From the NCBI GenBank assembly GCA_965287045.1, contig OZ336895.1, positions 24,118,001-24,182,000 on the forward strand: 64,000 bases of DNA, written 5' to 3'. The stretch comes from Carcharhinus amblyrhynchos (lineage: Eukaryota). Of this stretch, positions 1-27,000 are shown one piece after another. The position numbers were made by a program. The first letter of the stretch is position 1. Every line of letters begins with the position of its first letter.

Positions 1-3000
1 TCCCTCCTCCAGATCATTTTAATAATTTAATTTTAATATTTTAATAATGACAGCATCAGAACAGTCGACTGCAAACATTGAGACATCCAGTGCAGCACAA
101 ACCACTACATCAGCCCCTCCCTCAACAAGTACAATTGCATCAACAACTACACTGAGCTCAACAGAAGCATCGACAACTGCAGAAGCATCAATCACAACAT
201 CCATCCCTTCAACAAGCAGTGAGTACACGAGTGCTTTCTTATCAATTTTAACATCTTTGTCCATTCCTTAACTCCAGGTATAGAAACAATTAATTGAATG
301 TATTAAAACAAGCCCTGAGTACAGTAATGTGCAGAGGGGATTTGTTGATCTGAGTTGTGCCTACCTGCCAATTTACATTACTAAATTCCATGTCATGTGA
401 ATCAAGTTGATACTGAGGCAATACATTTTGTGTGTTTTTCCATGCTGTTGGTACCTTCCTAAGACTATCATCTATTTTAATAACAGCAGAAGAATCTTCA
501 GCTGCACCTACTGAGACATCCAAAGCAGCACAAAGCTCAACATCAGCTTCTGTCTCAACAAGTACAACAGCGCCAATAACTACAGTGAGCTCCACTGAAG
601 CATCAACAACTGAAGCAACAACAGGCGCGACATCACCCCCATCAACAAGCGGTGAGCATATCAAAGCATTTTTTGCAGATATTCTATTATCAGTGCTGAA
701 AAACTACAGCAAGTTACAAACACATAAATGATCTGATAATACGAGAGAGTATCCTCTTTTTTCATAGCTGCTTTTACAAGGTGCCATTAGTTATTTGCAC
801 TGTATAATATGACAAGGTGGAGCATCAGCTCATGTTAGGAAGTAGTTTCAGCCATTTTGCATAACTTTTTAAGCCTGTGTTCTATTTTAATTACTGCAGC
901 AACAGAACAGTCAACTACAAGCATACAGACATCCAGTACAGCACAAACCATTACATCAGCTCCACCCTCAAAAAGTGCAATTGCATCAACAACTACGCTG
1001 AGCTCAACAGAAGCATCGACAACTTCAGAAGCATCAATCACAACATCCCTCCCTTCAACAAGTAGTGAGTATCTGAGAGCTCTTTTATCAGTTTTAACAT
1101 CTCTATGCTTTCCTTGAACAAAGTATAGAAACAACTAATTTGACGTATCAAAAGCAAGCCCCAAGAAGATGAGATTTGCTCATTAGAGTTTTCTTAACAT
1201 GCCTGGCTTACAATAAAACAGTAAAGCTTTTACTTTCACTGACTGCAGTCACAAAAGCTCATAACTGAAATTTAATAAAACAATTCAGCATCATGTTTGC
1301 TACACTATTCCGCTAACCATTGTTTCCATTAATTTATGGAAACAATTAATTGAATGCATCAAATGTGAGTCCCACGTAGAGTAATTTGCAGATAAGATTT
1401 GTTCATTCAACTTTTATCAACATGTCTGCCTTACATTATGGTATTAAAGCATTTCCTTCACTGCAGCACAATGGCAACGTATGACTGTGCAATGCCTAGT
1501 AGTAGCATTCTGAACTCTTCCACTGACTGAAATTGCAAATACTGATAATTGAAATTTAATAAAATAATTCAGCATCTTGTTTGCTATGTGTACGCATAGG
1601 ATTAATGATATGTAAAAGAGCATTGGTGCTCTAATGCTGTCACAATTCCAGGCCACTTTATTCTGCTCACTATCCTTCATTGTACATATGCTTAGAGAAA
1701 AAATACAAGATGAATATAAAGTAAAATTATTACAGTATTGAACTACTCTTTTCAATCCTCTCAAGAACAATAAACACTTTATTTAATCCCAACAGCATCA
1801 GAATCGACAGCAAATGCACTGACTTCCACCGCAGCACCAACATCACCGTCAGCACCTACCTCACCAAGTACAATAGCACCAACATCTACAGCAAGCTCCA
1901 CTGAATCATCCACACCTGAAGCAACTACAATAGCAACATCAATCCCTTCAACAAGTGGTGAGTATGAGAGCTCCCCTAGTCAGTTATAGCATTCTGAACA
2001 TTTCCACGGATTGTAATTAGACGAACTTAATGGGATTTAACAATATAAGATAGCAAAATGTTGGCTATATAATTTCAGAGTAGAATAATATGCAAATACC
2101 ATGCTTTGGTATCTGCTTTGCAAGATTACATTACAAAGTTACACTCTCTATCAGATGAAGAATCTGGATTATCAGCTGTAATGTTAGCATGTTGTTTGAG
2201 TGAATTTGTACAATTCTTTAAGCCTGTCACCTATTTTAATAGCTACAGCATCTGAACAGTCGACTGCAAACATACAGACATCCAATACAGCACAAGCCAC
2301 TGTATCAGCTGCTCCCTCAACAAGTACAATTGCATCAACAACTACACTGAGCTCAACAGAAACATCAAAAACTGCAGAAGCATCAATCACAACATCCCTC
2401 CCTTCAACAAGTAGTGAGTATACGAGTGCTCTCTTATCAGGATTAACAACTCTATGCATTCCATTAATTCCAAGTATAGAAACAATTAATTCAACGTGTT
2501 TAAAGCAAGCCCTGACTGGAGTAATGTGCAGACGGGATTTGCTCATTAGAGTTGTTTAACATGCCAAGTTACATTCCTAAATTTCATGTTATATAAAGAA
2601 AATTGATTTTTACGCGAGACATTACATGTGTTTTTCCATGCTGTTTGTAACTTCCTACGACTATCACCTATTTGAATCACAGGAGAAGAATCTTCAGCTG
2701 CAACTACCGAGACATCCACAGCAGCACAAAGCTCAACACCAGCTTCTGTCTCAACAAGTACAATAGTGCAAACAACTACAGTCAGCTCCACTGAAGCATC
2801 AACAACTGAAGCAACAACAGGCACTACACCATCCCCATCAACAAGTGGTGAGTATTTCAAAGCATTCTTGCAGCTATCCCATTCCCAATCCTGAAAAACT
2901 ACTGGGAAGTTAGAAACACATGAAGGATCTGGTGATAAGAGAGTGGTGTCCTGTTTTTTGATACGTACTTTGTGAGATGCTTTCAGTTAGTTGCATGATA

Positions 3001-24000: not shown

Positions 24001-27000
24001 ATGTTTGGTATTATGTTGTTTCAGTCATTTTGTATAACTCTTTAAATGTGTCCCCTATTTTAATAACTGCAGCAACAGAACAATCGACTGCAAACATTGA
24101 GACATCCACTACAGCCCAAACCATTCCATCAGCTCCCGCCTCAACAAGTACAATTGCATCAACAACTGCATTGAGCTCAGCAGAAGCATCAACAACTGCA
24201 GAAGCATCAATCACAACATCCATCCCTTCAACAAGTAGTGAGTATATGAATGCTGTCTTATCAAGTTTAACATCTTTATTCATTCTGCTAACTCCAAGTG
24301 GCGATACCACTAATTTAATGTAACAAAATTAAGCCCCAGGAAGAATAATGTGCAGATGAGATTTGCTCATTCGAGTTTCCTTAACTTACCTGGTTTGCAT
24401 TACAATATTAAAGGTTTCATTGCAGCATGGTGGCAATGTATGAGTGCGCATTACCTAATTGTAGCATTCTGAACTCTAGCACTGACTGCAATTAGAACAA
24501 CTTAATCAAAATTAACAAAATAATACAGCATAATGTTGGATACAAATATTCAGAGTAGAATAATGTGCAAATGTCATGCTTTGATAACTGTTTGCAAGAT
24601 TACATCAGATAGTCACACGGTACATCAGATGAAGAAGCTGGATTATCAGCTATAATGTGAGCATGTCGTTTCTGTCATTTTGTACAGCTCTTTAAACCTG
24701 TCACCTATTTTAATAACAGCAGCATCCACAAAGTCGACTGCAAGCACTGAGACACCCAGTACAGCACAAACCACAACATCAGCTCCTCCCTCAAGAACAA
24801 CACTGAGCTCAACAGAAGCATCGACAACTGCAGAAGCATCAATCACAACAACCCACCCTTCAACAAGTAGTGAGTACATGGGTGCTCTGTTATCAATTTT
24901 AACATCTCGATGCATTCCATTAATTCTAGGTATTGAATGAATTAAAAGCAAGCCCTGAGTAGAGTAATGAGCAGATGACATTTGCTCATTAGAGTTGTTT
25001 TAACATGCCAAGTTCCGTTATTAAATTCCACGTTATGTGAGTAAAGTTGATTTTTACGTGAGACATTGCGTGTATTTTTCCATGCTGCTTGTAACTTCCT
25101 AAGCCTATCACCTATTTCAATAATAGCAGAAGAATCGTCAGCTGCAACTACTGAGACATTCACAGCAACACAAAGCTCAGCATCAGCTTCTGTCTCAACA
25201 AGTACAATAGTGCAAACAACTCGAGTGAGCTCCACTGAAGGATCAACAACTGAAGCAACAGGCACTACACCACCCCCATCAACAAGTGGTGAGTGTATGA
25301 AAGCATTCTTTGCAGCTATTCCATTGTAAGTTATGAAAAACTACTGGAAGTTGCTATATCCCTCCCTTCAACAAGCAATGAGTATATGGGTGCTCTCTTA
25401 CGAATTTCTCCATGCATCTCCATACATTCCACTAACTCCAAGTATAGAAATAACTAATTGAATGTAGCAAATGAAACCTCAAGTAGAGTAATGTACAGAT
25501 GAAATTTCCTCATTAGAGTTTTCTTCACACGTCTGGCTTACATTAAAATATTAAAACTGTTACTTCTCTGCGGCATGGTGGCAGTATGTGAGCACTCTCT
25601 ACATAGTTGTGGCATTCTGAACTCTTCCACTGACTGCATCTACAATCACTCTGAATTGAAATTTACTTAAATAATTCAGCATGATGTTTGCTGTGTGTAC
25701 CTATATGCACATGATTAATGATATATAAAACAACACTGGTGTTCTAATGTTGTCTCAAAATCAGGCCATTTTATCCTGCTGACTATTGTTCACTATACAG
25801 TAGTTTTGTTAAATATTACAACACAAGTATGAAGTAAAATCATTAATATATTGGTCAATCCTTTTAATTTCCATCAATAATAATAAACACTTTATTTAAT
25901 CACAGGTGTATCAGAATCGACAGCAAATGCACCGACTTCCACCACAGCACAAACATCACCATCAGCACCTACCTCACCAAGTACAATCGCACCAACATCT
26001 ACAGCAAGCTCCACTGAATCACCCACACCTGAATCAACAACAATAACAACATCAATCCCTTCAACAAGTGGTGAGTATGAATGCTCCCTACTCAGTTGTA
26101 GCATTCTGAACTCATCCACCGAGTGCATTTATAAATATACATTTTGAAATTTAACAAAATAATATGGCAGAATGTTGGCTACGTGTATTCAGAGTAGAAT
26201 AATGTGCAAATGCCATGCTTTGATACCTGCTTTGCGAGGTTGCAAGTCCAAAGATGCACGGGTTAGCTTGATTGTCCATGCTAAAATTGCCTTTTAGTGT
26301 CCTGAGATATGTAGGTTAGAGGGATTAGCGGGTAAGTATGTAGGGATATGGAGGTAGGGCCTGGGTGGGATTGTGGTTGCTGCAGACTCGATGGGCCAAA
26401 TGGCCTCTTTTTCAGCAGTGTAGGACTTCTATGATTACATTAGATAGTTACACTGTATATCAGATGAAGAAGCTGGATCATCAGCGATAAAGTTAGAGTG
26501 TTGTTTCAGACATTTTGTATAACCCTTTAAGCCTGTCATTTATTTTAATAACTGCAGCAACAGAACAGTCAACTGCGAACATACAGACATCTAGTGCAGC
26601 ACAAACTACTGCATCAGTTCCTCCCTCAACAAGTACAATTGCATCAACAACTACACTGAGCTCAACAGAAGCAGTGATAACTGCAGAAGCATCAACCGCA
26701 ACATCCATCCCTTCAACAAGTAGTGAGTATAAGAGTGCTCTCTTTTCAGTTTTAACATCTCGAACTAAGTATAGAAACAACTAATTCAATGTATCTAAAG
26801 CAAGCCCCAAGGAGTTTGGATATGCTCATTCCAGTTTTCTTAACATGCCTGGCTAACAACAAAATAGTAAATCTTTTACTTCCCCCGACTCCAACTACAA
26901 AAGCTCAGAATTGAAATTTAACAAAATAACTCAGCATCAGTTCTGCATTTGTCTCGGCACAGGATTAATGGTATGTAAAAGAACATTGGTGGTCTAATGC

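What the first reader, a model, noticed from the sequence alone, without database searches (positions are those of the whole stretch)
54..26722. Mucin domain built from 50 interchangeable 55-codon cassette exons: a candidate combinatorial splicing system
Seen: 50 consecutive Thr/Ser/Ala-rich exons (about 2,716 aa), all phase 1-1 and multiples of 3. Every exon ends in A or G, so no junction codon can be a stop and any subset gives an open frame. Known: in human MUC16 and most mammalian mucins (MUC1, MUC2, MUC4, MUC5AC/B) the PTS region lies in one or a few giant exons; exon-per-repeat mucins exist (e.g. Xenopus integumentary FIM mucins, with splice-generated polydispersity), but I do not know of this layout on a MUC16-type SEA array. 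Inference: length and O-glycan pattern of the ectodomain may be tuned by exon skipping, as in titin PEVK.
Basis: partly seen in the sequence, partly recalled or inferred. Interest (0 to 1): 0.85.

Follow-up and report, generated by a model that had tools for sequence, protein, structure and literature searches.

The report
Shark MUC16-like mucin, one repeat per exon
A shark gene related to the cell-surface mucin MUC16 builds its sugar-carrying stalk from at least 50 small, frame-compatible exons instead of one giant exon, a layout already known from chicken Muc13, and whether cells mix and match these exons remains untested.

Summary
There are 50 Thr/Ser/Ala-rich exons on the + strand between 54 and 26722, totalling 8,151 nt or 2,717 codons. 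All lengths are multiples of 3, all exons are phase 1-1, and all end in A or G. They are real coding exons. None of 252 sequence variants makes an in-frame stop, where 10 were expected. Every exonic indel is a multiple of 3. The splice signals are the best-conserved positions.

The array has three exon subtypes arranged in blocks of 4 to 6 exons that were duplicated together with their introns. It runs straight into at least 6 SEA-domain modules. The closest relatives are predicted shark "mucin-16-like" proteins, whose mucin regions repeat every 53-57 residues.

The interpretation as a combinatorial splicing system has no specific support. Frame compatibility is needed for an exon to duplicate in tandem at all, and an A or G before the donor fits the donor consensus, as I recall it. 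Donors are near-consensus, and the flanking introns show no extra conservation. No RNA data were available.

One-repeat-per-exon mucin domains, and the idea that splicing tunes their length, were published in 2006 for chicken and zebrafish Muc13 (PMC1552070). This is a new member of a known kind.

The parts
54..218 (+). PTS exon 1, subtype A, 165 nt, phase 1-1
487..651 (+). PTS exon 2, subtype B, 165 nt
900..1064 (+). PTS exon 3, subtype A, 165 nt
1796..1957 (+). PTS exon 4, subtype C, 162 nt
2249..2413 (+). PTS exon 5, subtype A, 165 nt (in-frame alternative acceptor gives start 2243)
2683..2847 (+). PTS exon 6, subtype B, 165 nt
3312..3473 (+). PTS exon 7, subtype A, 162 nt
3977..4141 (+). 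PTS exon 8, subtype C, 165 nt
4412..4558 (+). PTS exon 9, subtype A, 147 nt
5078..5239 (+). PTS exon 10, subtype C, 162 nt
5513..5677 (+). PTS exon 11, subtype A, 165 nt
6126..6287 (+). PTS exon 12, subtype C, 162 nt
6558..6722 (+). PTS exon 13, subtype A, 165 nt
7208..7372 (+). PTS exon 14, subtype A, 165 nt
7889..8053 (+). PTS exon 15, subtype C, 165 nt
8344..8508 (+). PTS exon 16, subtype A, 165 nt (query)
8777..8941 (+). PTS exon 17, subtype B, 165 nt
9195..9359 (+). PTS exon 18, subtype A, 165 nt
10079..10240 (+). PTS exon 19, subtype C, 162 nt
10531..10695 (+). PTS exon 20, subtype A, 165 nt; first exon of the first ABABAC block
10962..11126 (+). PTS exon 21, subtype B, 165 nt
11380..11544 (+). 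PTS exon 22, subtype A, 165 nt
11801..11950 (+). PTS exon 23, subtype B, 150 nt
12480..12644 (+). PTS exon 24, subtype A, 165 nt
13167..13331 (+). PTS exon 25, subtype C, 165 nt
13829..13984 (+). PTS exon 26, subtype A, 156 nt; start of the second ABABAC block
14228..14392 (+). PTS exon 27, subtype B, 165 nt
14637..14801 (+). PTS exon 28, subtype A, 165 nt (alternative in-frame acceptor gives start 14628)
15050..15214 (+). PTS exon 29, subtype B, 165 nt
15754..15918 (+). PTS exon 30, subtype A, 165 nt
16447..16611 (+). PTS exon 31, subtype C, 165 nt
16898..17059 (+). PTS exon 32, subtype A, 162 nt; start of the third ABABAC block
17300..17464 (+). PTS exon 33, subtype B, 165 nt
17707..17871 (+). 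PTS exon 34, subtype A, 165 nt
18146..18310 (+). PTS exon 35, subtype B, 165 nt; 83% identical over all 54 residues to Scyliorhinus torazame P0011 273-326
18843..19007 (+). PTS exon 36, subtype A, 165 nt
19519..19683 (+). PTS exon 37, subtype C, 165 nt
19974..20141 (+). PTS exon 38, subtype A, 168 nt; start of the fourth ABABAC block
20382..20528 (+). PTS exon 39, subtype B, 147 nt
20771..20935 (+). PTS exon 40, subtype A, 165 nt
21211..21375 (+). PTS exon 41, subtype B, 165 nt
21908..22069 (+). PTS exon 42, subtype A, 162 nt; the only weakened donor (GTGAAT), so the exon most likely to be skipped
22578..22739 (+). PTS exon 43, subtype C, 162 nt
23031..23195 (+). PTS exon 44, subtype A, 165 nt (AAG acceptor)
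23636..23800 (+). PTS exon 45, subtype C, 165 nt
24073..24237 (+). PTS exon 46, subtype A, 165 nt
24720..24869 (+). PTS exon 47, subtype A (divergent), 150 nt
25127..25288 (+). PTS exon 48, subtype B, 162 nt
25906..26070 (+). PTS exon 49, subtype C, 165 nt
26558..26722 (+). PTS exon 50, subtype A, 165 nt; last exon of the array
28269..29004 (+). Module 1 linker: two further phase 1-1 PTS exons, 28269-28433 (165 nt) and 28840-29004 (165 nt)
   Evidence: spliced in this order in the Mustelus asterias model P0006
29867..32561 (+). Module 1 SEA domain in three exons: 29867-30027 (ends AAG, followed by a GC donor), 30115-30182, 32395-32561
   Evidence: Pfam SEA part-matches; tblastn; boundaries
33948..33974 (+). 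27-nt phase 1-1 micro-exon encoding G-YHESAALT; further copies at 42056-42082, 49034-49060, 58057-58083 and 62634-62660
   Evidence: the same residues are present in P0006 and P0004
35686..40146 (+). Module 2: PTS exons 35686-35850 and 36120-36287; SEA exons 37139-37299 (GC donor), about 37387-37454 and about 39980-40146
   Evidence: Coordinates marked 'about' come from tblastn and the offset to module 1
43806..47762 (+). Module 3: PTS exons 43806-43970 and 44243-44407; SEA exons 47018-47178 (GC donor), about 47264-47335 and about 47593-47762
50514..64000 (+). Modules 4 to 7, SEA exons without 55-codon PTS exons. N-terminal parts: 50514-50674, 53993-54150, 60488-60639, 63447-63598. C-terminal parts: about 52581-52750, 56788-56951, 62297-62463. 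The gene runs off the 3' end of the window

Best explanation
This is the mucin (PTS) domain of a shark MUC16-like transmembrane mucin gene. It is encoded one repeat per exon: at least 50 symmetric phase 1-1 exons of about 55 codons, separated by short introns of 240-731 nt.

The array grew by unequal crossing-over of genomic units that contain both exon and intron, first singly and then as blocks of 4 to 6 exons (ABAC, then ABABAC, about 3.07 kb). Only frame-symmetric exons can multiply in this way. The fact that any subset stays in frame is therefore a by-product of how the array arose.

Selection keeps the reading frame, the splice signals and the Thr/Ser-rich composition, while the amino-acid sequence itself drifts almost neutrally.

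Inferred, not shown: by default most or all exons are spliced in, giving an O-glycosylated stalk of about 2,700 residues in front of the SEA modules. Length varies mainly through gain and loss of genomic copies. Some unregulated in-frame skipping is tolerated because it cannot shift the frame.
For: Shown:
- Exon table and junction codons.
- 0 stop-making variants of 252 in the coding frame against 10.0 expected, while the other frames have 23 and 9.
- Exonic indels are multiples of 3 in 12 of 12 and 7 of 7 cases, intronic ones in 10 of 39.
- Identity among the four 3.1-kb blocks: 0.964 at -20..-1, 0.972 at +1..+6, 0.914 in exons, 0.83-0.87 in the rest of the intron.
- pN/pS between paralogous exons is 0.90 pooled, range 0.73-1.39.
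- Composition: T 28.9%, S 25.8%, A 14.2%, P 7.6%, no Cys and no N-glycosylation sequon.
- Block duplications that include introns: 37-3111 against 8327-11390 at 94.9% identity, and a 3,072-nt offset over 6.6 kb at 87.8%.
- No decayed exon copies in the introns.
- Same strand and same phase as the downstream SEA exons.
- The nearest relatives are shark 'mucin-16-like' models. Their PTS regions repeat every 53-57 residues.
- The Mustelus model P0006 joins the two linker PTS exons exactly as read here.
- Scyliorhinus torazame P0011 and Chiloscyllium punctatum P0015 carry 8 and 12 consecutive units of about 55 residues between SEA domains.
Against: - No transcript of this array was seen, so inclusion of all 50 exons is inferred.
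- The shark proteins are predicted models, and I could not see which have RNA support.
- Single-exon searches with a PTS exon found nothing, so homology of the PTS units rests on local BLASTP run without composition correction, which is noisy for such sequence.
- A pN/pS near 1 alone would also fit non-coding sequence. Only the stop, indel and splice-signal tests argue otherwise.
- Acceptor pyrimidine tracts are only moderate (mean 0.60), and every exon has in-frame alternative AGs close by. Splicing may therefore be less uniform than assumed.
- The window starts inside the array, so the 5' end of the gene and the true exon count are unknown.
Confidence: 0.7

Rival explanations
1. The array is a regulated combinatorial cassette system. 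Tissue-specific factors choose subsets of the 50 exons, perhaps by subtype A, B or C, to set ectodomain length and O-glycan pattern, as RBM20 does for the titin spring region.
For: - All exons are symmetric and no junction makes a stop.
- Three subtypes occur in a regular order.
- Pyrimidine tracts are moderate (0.60) and tandem in-frame acceptors are present.
- One donor is weakened, in exon 42.
- There is precedent for the idea in chicken Muc13 (PMC1552070). FIM-C.1 is reported to be polymorphic through alternative splicing (PMC7177656).
Against: - Frame symmetry and a terminal A or G follow from the origin of the array and from the donor consensus (the latter from memory).
- 49 of 50 donors are GTGAG(T/C).
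- Conservation is confined to the core splice signals. At -21..-50 it is 0.832 and at +7..+50 it is 0.849, no higher than deep intron at 0.874.
- Introns are short.
- No RNA or isoform evidence could be obtained.
Confidence: 0.12
2. Unregulated polydispersity. The near-identical splice sites let the spliceosome occasionally pair a donor with a later acceptor. The products stay in frame and so escape mRNA surveillance. The mRNA and protein population then has a spread of lengths with no programme behind it. This reading is compatible with the best explanation and overlaps with it.
For: - 0 of 1,225 exon pairs give a stop.
- Splice sites are nearly identical across units.
- Exon 42 has a weak donor, and read-through there would hit a stop soon after, so skipping is the viable outcome.
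- Shorter human MUC16 transcripts lacking whole repeats have been reported, with the cause left open (PMC10829539, passages).
Against: No transcript data. Short introns and strong donors favour orderly splicing.
Confidence: 0.45
3. The array belongs to a separate gene, for example a secreted mucin, lying upstream of the MUC16-like SEA gene.
For: There is a 1.5-kb gap between exon 50 and the next PTS exon, containing an interspersed repeat copy at 27506-27802. No transcript links the two parts.
Against: - Same strand and same phase 1-1.
- The next exons (28269-28433 and 28840-29004) are of the same exon family. They cluster with subtype C at the loose threshold and separately at the strict one.
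- Catshark and bamboo-shark models place runs of such units directly between SEA domains.
Confidence: 0.07
4. The exons are not functional, being either a decaying repeat or an assembly artefact.
For: pN/pS is near 1. Repeat arrays are often misassembled.
Against: - The stop-codon, indel and splice-signal tests all show constraint.
- The copies differ by 5-20%, with the best pair at 94.9%, which is unlike collapsed or duplicated assembly errors.
Confidence: 0.03

Closest known systems
Chicken and zebrafish Muc13 PTS domain (Lang, Hansson and Samuelsson 2006, PMC1552070; passages read)
   Same: Both are SEA-type transmembrane mucins whose PTS domain is split into many exons, each encoding one repeat unit. 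The authors already proposed that alternative splicing could set PTS length, and that this may be an ancestral design of mucins.
   Different: Muc13 has one SEA domain, repeats of 20 residues and at least 12 exons. Here the gene is MUC16-like with many SEA modules, units of about 55 residues, at least 50 exons, and three subtypes arranged in duplicated blocks.
Human MUC16 / CA125 (review PMC3431878, passages and Table 1)
   Same: A long Ser/Thr-rich amino-terminal part is followed by a tandem array of SEA-containing repeats, each built from several exons. The family name comes from NCBI's naming of the shark homologues.
   Different: The human amino domain is given as 12,068 residues in 9 exons, that is a few very large exons, and each 156-residue repeat takes 5 exons. 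Here the PTS part is cut into 147-168-nt exons. I made no comparison with human sequence.
Xenopus mucins: Otogl/MucXS multi-exon mucin domain (PMC5789918, passages) and FIM-C.1 (PMC7177656, passages)
   Same: The mucin domain is spread over many exons. FIM-C.1 is described as highly polymorphic through alternative splicing.
   Different: These are secreted gel-forming mucins with VWD, TFF or Cys-rich modules, not SEA-type membrane mucins.
Titin PEVK / I-band exon array (PMC3575840 and PMC6469411; search listing and abstract starts only)
   Same: A long run of small, repetitive, frame-compatible exons encodes a disordered segment whose length is set by exon skipping.
   Different: Titin skipping is documented and depends on a dedicated repressor (Rbm20). 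Here neither skipping nor any regulator is shown. The protein classes are unrelated.
CD44 variant exons (PMC10722200; search listing and abstract start only; details recalled)
   Same: From memory: cassette exons inserted in the membrane-proximal stalk of a cell-surface glycoprotein and used in many combinations.
   Different: From memory: about ten non-repetitive exons under known regulators. This is not a tandem repeat array and not a mucin with SEA domains.

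Membership tests
MUC16-type transmembrane mucin | Several tandem SEA domains | tested here: met
   Pfam SEA part-matches: the N-terminal part (E 3.2e-5 and 1.8e-5) and the C-terminal part (E 9e-4 to 0.03) in separate exons. Each is below the gathering score because each exon holds only part of the domain. tblastn with shark mucin-16-like proteins marks six complete modules and the start of a seventh.
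MUC16-type transmembrane mucin | Large Ser/Thr/Pro-rich mucin domain | tested here: met
   T 28.9%, S 25.8%, P 7.6% and A 14.2% over the complete codons of the 50 exons (2,667 residues counted). Each exon has 25-33 Ser+Thr.
MUC16-type transmembrane mucin | C-terminal transmembrane helix and short cytoplasmic tail | not testable with these tools
   The window ends inside the SEA array. The shark homologues P0001 to P0005 do end in such a segment.
MUC16-type transmembrane mucin | Orthology to tetrapod MUC16 | tested here: inconclusive
   The best hits are shark 'mucin-16-like' at 69-91% identity. The Heptranchias homologue hits tetrapod 'mucin-16' at 28-37% identity. I built no tree, checked no synteny and made no comparison with human sequence.
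One-repeat-per-exon PTS mucins (chicken Muc13 layout) | Each PTS repeat unit is encoded by its own exon | tested here: met
   50 units, each bounded by AG and GT, with unit equal to exon.
One-repeat-per-exon PTS mucins (chicken Muc13 layout) | Transcript support for the exon structure | not testable with these tools
   No RNA data. Only predicted models from other sharks were available (P0006, P0011, P0015).
Regulated combinatorial cassette-exon array (titin PEVK / CD44v type) | Frame-symmetric exons, so that any subset stays open | tested here: met
   50 of 50 exons are phase 1-1, and 0 of 1,225 junctions give a stop.
Regulated combinatorial cassette-exon array (titin PEVK / CD44v type) | Observed isoforms that differ in which exons are included | not testable with these tools
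   No cDNA.
Regulated combinatorial cassette-exon array (titin PEVK / CD44v type) | Conserved regulatory sequence in the flanking introns | tested here: not met
   Among the four paralogous blocks, only -20..-1 (0.964) and +1..+6 (0.972) exceed the exon (0.914). Further flanks are at 0.83-0.85 against 0.874 for deep intron. This compares paralogues, not orthologues, so it is a weak test.
Regulated combinatorial cassette-exon array (titin PEVK / CD44v type) | Sub-optimal splice sites | tested here: inconclusive
   Donors: GTGAGT in 46, GTGAGC in 3, GTGAAT in 1 of 50. The -1 base is A in 29 exons. Acceptor pyrimidine fraction averages 0.60 (range 0.47-0.71). In-frame alternative AGs lie next to all 50 acceptors.

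The most novel reading that the evidence does not exclude
The three exon subtypes in their regular ABAC and ABABAC order are the units of a regulated choice. Epithelia of different organs would include different subsets, giving a MUC16-like glycocalyx whose height and O-glycan spacing are set by splicing within one animal. This would be the first demonstrated case of the mechanism proposed in 2006 for Muc13.
Probability: 0.1. Interest if true: 0.7.

Novelty: new member of a known kind. Interest (0 to 1): 0.35.

Why it matters
In mammals the length of a mucin stalk is fixed by giant exons and changes only by allelic repeat number. A membrane mucin whose stalk is cut into 50 or more frame-compatible exons could, in principle, change length within one individual.

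The locus is a clean place to test the old Muc13 proposal with long-read cDNA. It also shows how a mucin domain can grow by duplicating exon-plus-intron blocks. The PTS period of 53-57 residues in several shark orders suggests that the unit size is old in sharks, and perhaps the exon-per-repeat layout with it. That bears on whether split or giant-exon PTS domains are ancestral.

As it stands this is an annotation-level finding, not a new mechanism.

Tried and rejected
- **Tandem Repeats Finder** did not see the array because its longest period is 500.
- **Single-exon homology searches** with PTS exon 16 found nothing. In one search, 341 candidates of 96-2000 residues were scored and none reached E <= 1e-3. 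In one search the library of 1.84 billion representatives gave 0 hits. The likely cause is that composition filters remove such sequence. This does not show that the exon is unique.
- **Pfam** finds nothing in a PTS exon.
I replaced this with single open frames.
- **The isoform look-up** in the protein clusters was switched off, so predicted isoforms of the ray and shark models could not be compared.
- **In-register mapping** of the exons on other shark proteins by BLASTP without composition correction is noisy. I rely only on the period estimates, the 83% whole-exon match to P0011, and visual reading of P0011 and P0015.
- **RNA genes:** no tRNA and no Rfam family anywhere in the window.
- **The joined 50-exon coding sequence** was never assembled for a search or a fold. 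All searches were exon by exon.
- **Collections and files not queried:** I did not query genome contigs, which holds bacteria and archaea only. Supplementary files of the papers were not opened; those of PMC1552070 and PMC10829539 may hold exon tables relevant to the comparison.
- **Rejected: pseudo-exons or assembly artefact**.
- **Rejected as an argument:** 'ends in A or G, so designed for skipping'. This is trivial given the donor consensus (recalled) and common descent.

Full report
**What is there.** The window has no N. All 56 Thr/Ser-rich open frames lie on the + strand, 50 of them before 26781. Each is bounded by an AG and by a GT donor. The final table has 50 exons from 54..218 to 26558..26722.

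- Lengths are 165 nt (35 exons), 162 (9), 147 (2), 150 (2), 156 (1) and 168 (1), in all 8,151 nt or 2,717 codons.
- Every length is a multiple of 3 and every exon is phase 1-1.
- The last base is A in 29 exons and G in 21.
- None of the 1,225 ordered exon pairs gives a stop at the junction codon.
- Introns are 240-731 nt, median 290.

'55 codons' holds for 35 of 50 exons.

**Are they real exons?** Four tests compare the exons with sequence from the same array.

1. *Stop codons.* Against the consensus of each subtype there are 252 unique substitution variants. None makes a stop in the coding frame, where 10.0 were expected (Poisson about 4e-5). In the two other frames 23 (expected 13.5) and 9 (expected 8.7) do.
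2. *Indels.* Gap runs inside exons are multiples of 3 in 12 of 12 cases and 7 of 7. In the introns of the same alignment only 10 of 39 are.
3. *Splice signals.* Among the four 3.1-kb blocks, identity is 0.964 in the last 20 intron bases, 0.972 in the donor hexamer, 0.914 in the exons and 0.83-0.87 elsewhere in the introns.
4. *Decayed copies.* No decayed exon copy lies in any intron of the array. Only a 22-nt piece is found, at 25356-25377.

Amino-acid change between paralogous exons is nearly neutral (pN/pS 0.90 pooled, 0.73-1.39 by set). Composition is held at T 28.9%, S 25.8%, A 14.2% and P 7.6%, with 25-33 Ser+Thr per exon, no Cys and no N-glycosylation sequon. This is how a mucin domain is expected to evolve: frame, splicing and composition are kept, while the sequence is free.

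**Structure of the array.** Clustering gives three subtypes, A (26), B (12) and C (12). In order they read ABAC ABAC ACACAAC ABAC, then ABABAC four times (exons 20-43), then AC AABCA.

- The four ABABAC blocks are 3,057-3,298 nt long. They align over exons and introns alike, at 0.89-0.94 in exons and 0.82-0.92 in introns.
- Region 37-3111 is repeated at 8327-11390 with 94.9% identity.

The array therefore grew by duplication of genomic blocks that carry their introns with them. The window begins in an intron 53 nt before exon 1, so 50 is a lower bound.

**The gene.** Downstream on the same strand and in the same phase lie six complete SEA modules and the start of a seventh.

- Pfam finds the N-terminal part of SEA in one exon class and the C-terminal part in another.
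- tblastn with shark proteins maps three SEA exons per module.
- The first three modules each begin with two more phase 1-1 PTS exons of the same family: 28269-28433 and 28840-29004, 35686-35850 and 36120-36287, 43806-43970 and 44243-44407.
- A single SEA exon as query found 6 proteins. Five are named shark or sawfish 'mucin-16-like'. The sixth is an uncharacterised Mustelus asterias protein, the closest at 91% identity.
- That Mustelus model joins SEA, the two PTS exons and the next SEA exactly as I read the window.
- A wider search from the Heptranchias homologue gave 55 proteins, made up of shark and ray 'mucin-16-like' and tetrapod 'mucin-16'.

I take the window for a shark, probably a carcharhiniform, and not for human sequence.

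**Other sharks.** I analysed 22 of the 56 stored proteins, chosen by name. The shark ones with a PTS region of at least 150 residues show these periods: 53 (Pristiophorus), 56 (Stegostoma), 55 and 54 (Scyliorhinus torazame), 55 (Chiloscyllium punctatum), 57 (Heptranchias) and 57/110 (Rhincodon). One whole subtype-B exon is 83% identical to S. torazame P0011 residues 273-326. P0011 and P0015 carry 8 and 12 consecutive units of about 55 residues between two SEA domains. The unit therefore appears to be old and shared among sharks. Their genomic exon structure could not be seen here.

**How it most likely works.** The shown parts are the coding constraint, the splice signals, the block duplication and the link to the SEA array.

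The inferred parts are these:
- By default the exons are all spliced in and give an O-glycosylated stalk of about 2,700 residues.
- Length changes mainly by unequal crossing-over.
- Occasional in-frame skipping is tolerated because it cannot shift the frame.

Exon 42 (21908-22069) has the only weakened donor, GTGAAT. It is the best candidate for a skipped exon, and read-through there meets a stop within a few codons.

**The combinatorial reading.** Nothing in the sequence speaks specifically for it.

- Symmetric phase is required for tandem exon duplication.
- A or G at the last exon base is what I recall the donor consensus favouring, and the copies share an ancestor.
- 49 of 50 donors are GTGAG(T/C).
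- The flanks beyond the core signals are not conserved above deep intron.

Some points leave room for heterogeneity. Acceptor pyrimidine tracts average only 0.60, and all 50 acceptors have in-frame alternative AGs 3-9 nt away, in most cases downstream. Those would add or drop one to three residues.

**What is known.**
- Lang, Hansson and Samuelsson (PMC1552070, passages read) showed that the PTS domain of chicken Muc13 lies in at least 12 exons, one 20-residue repeat each, and that zebrafish Muc13 is similar. They proposed that splicing could set PTS length and that this may be an ancestral mucin design.
- The mucin domain of Xenopus Otogl is multi-exonic (PMC5789918).
- FIM-C.1 is described as polymorphic through alternative splicing (PMC7177656).
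- Human MUC16 is tabulated with an amino domain of 12,068 residues in 9 exons and repeats of 156 residues in 5 exons (PMC3431878).
- Shorter MUC16 transcripts lacking whole repeats have been seen, with the cause left open (PMC10829539).

I found no paper on the exon structure of a shark MUC16-like gene in the searches. The library holds open-access papers and preprints only. The shark skin proteome paper I read reports gel-forming mucins and no mucin-16 (PMC10707392).

**Verdict.** The splicing hypothesis is reasonable, already in print for another SEA mucin, and untested here. The finding is a new member of a known kind and of moderate interest. The joined 50-exon model was not assembled for any search or fold.

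Noticed in passing
donors at 30028, 37300 and 47179: The first SEA exon of modules 1-3 ends AAG and is followed by GCAAGT, which is a GC-AG intron kept in three paralogous modules. Modules 4-7 use GT donors at the same place.
   Followed up: partly
33948-33974, 42056-42082, 49034-49060, 58057-58083, 62634-62660: 27-nt phase 1-1 micro-exons encoding G-YHESxxxT lie between each SEA C-terminal exon and the next module. A divergent copy (YNKQ...) appears near 52890.
   Followed up: partly
all 50 acceptors of the array, e.g. 487/490/493 and 8777/8780/8783: Every array exon has one or two further in-frame AGs within 3-9 nt of the acceptor (tandem acceptors). Their use would add or remove 1-3 residues at each junction.
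   Followed up: partly
39195-39899 (-) and 54225-54980 (+): Two mutually similar open frames of 234 and 251 residues sit in opposite orientation inside introns of the SEA part. Neither has a Pfam match. From memory they resemble the C-terminal part of a retrotransposon ORF common in shark genomes; this was not tested.
   Followed up: partly
27506-27802, 44811-45121, 48176-48702, 58298-58640, 61774-62081 and others: Copies of an interspersed repeat of about 300 nt occur in both orientations at 74-80% identity. No tRNA or Rfam match.
   Followed up: partly
25356-25377: A 22-nt perfect copy of the 3' end of exon 9 lies alone in the intron after exon 48. It is the only exon-derived fragment in any intron of the array.
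   Followed up: no
P0031 (Spea bombifrons mucin-16) and P0027 (Emydura mucin-16): The frog model has a 51-residue PTS period with 94% self-match, and the turtle model has a 49-residue period. Exon-sized PTS units may therefore exist in MUC16 outside sharks.
   Followed up: no
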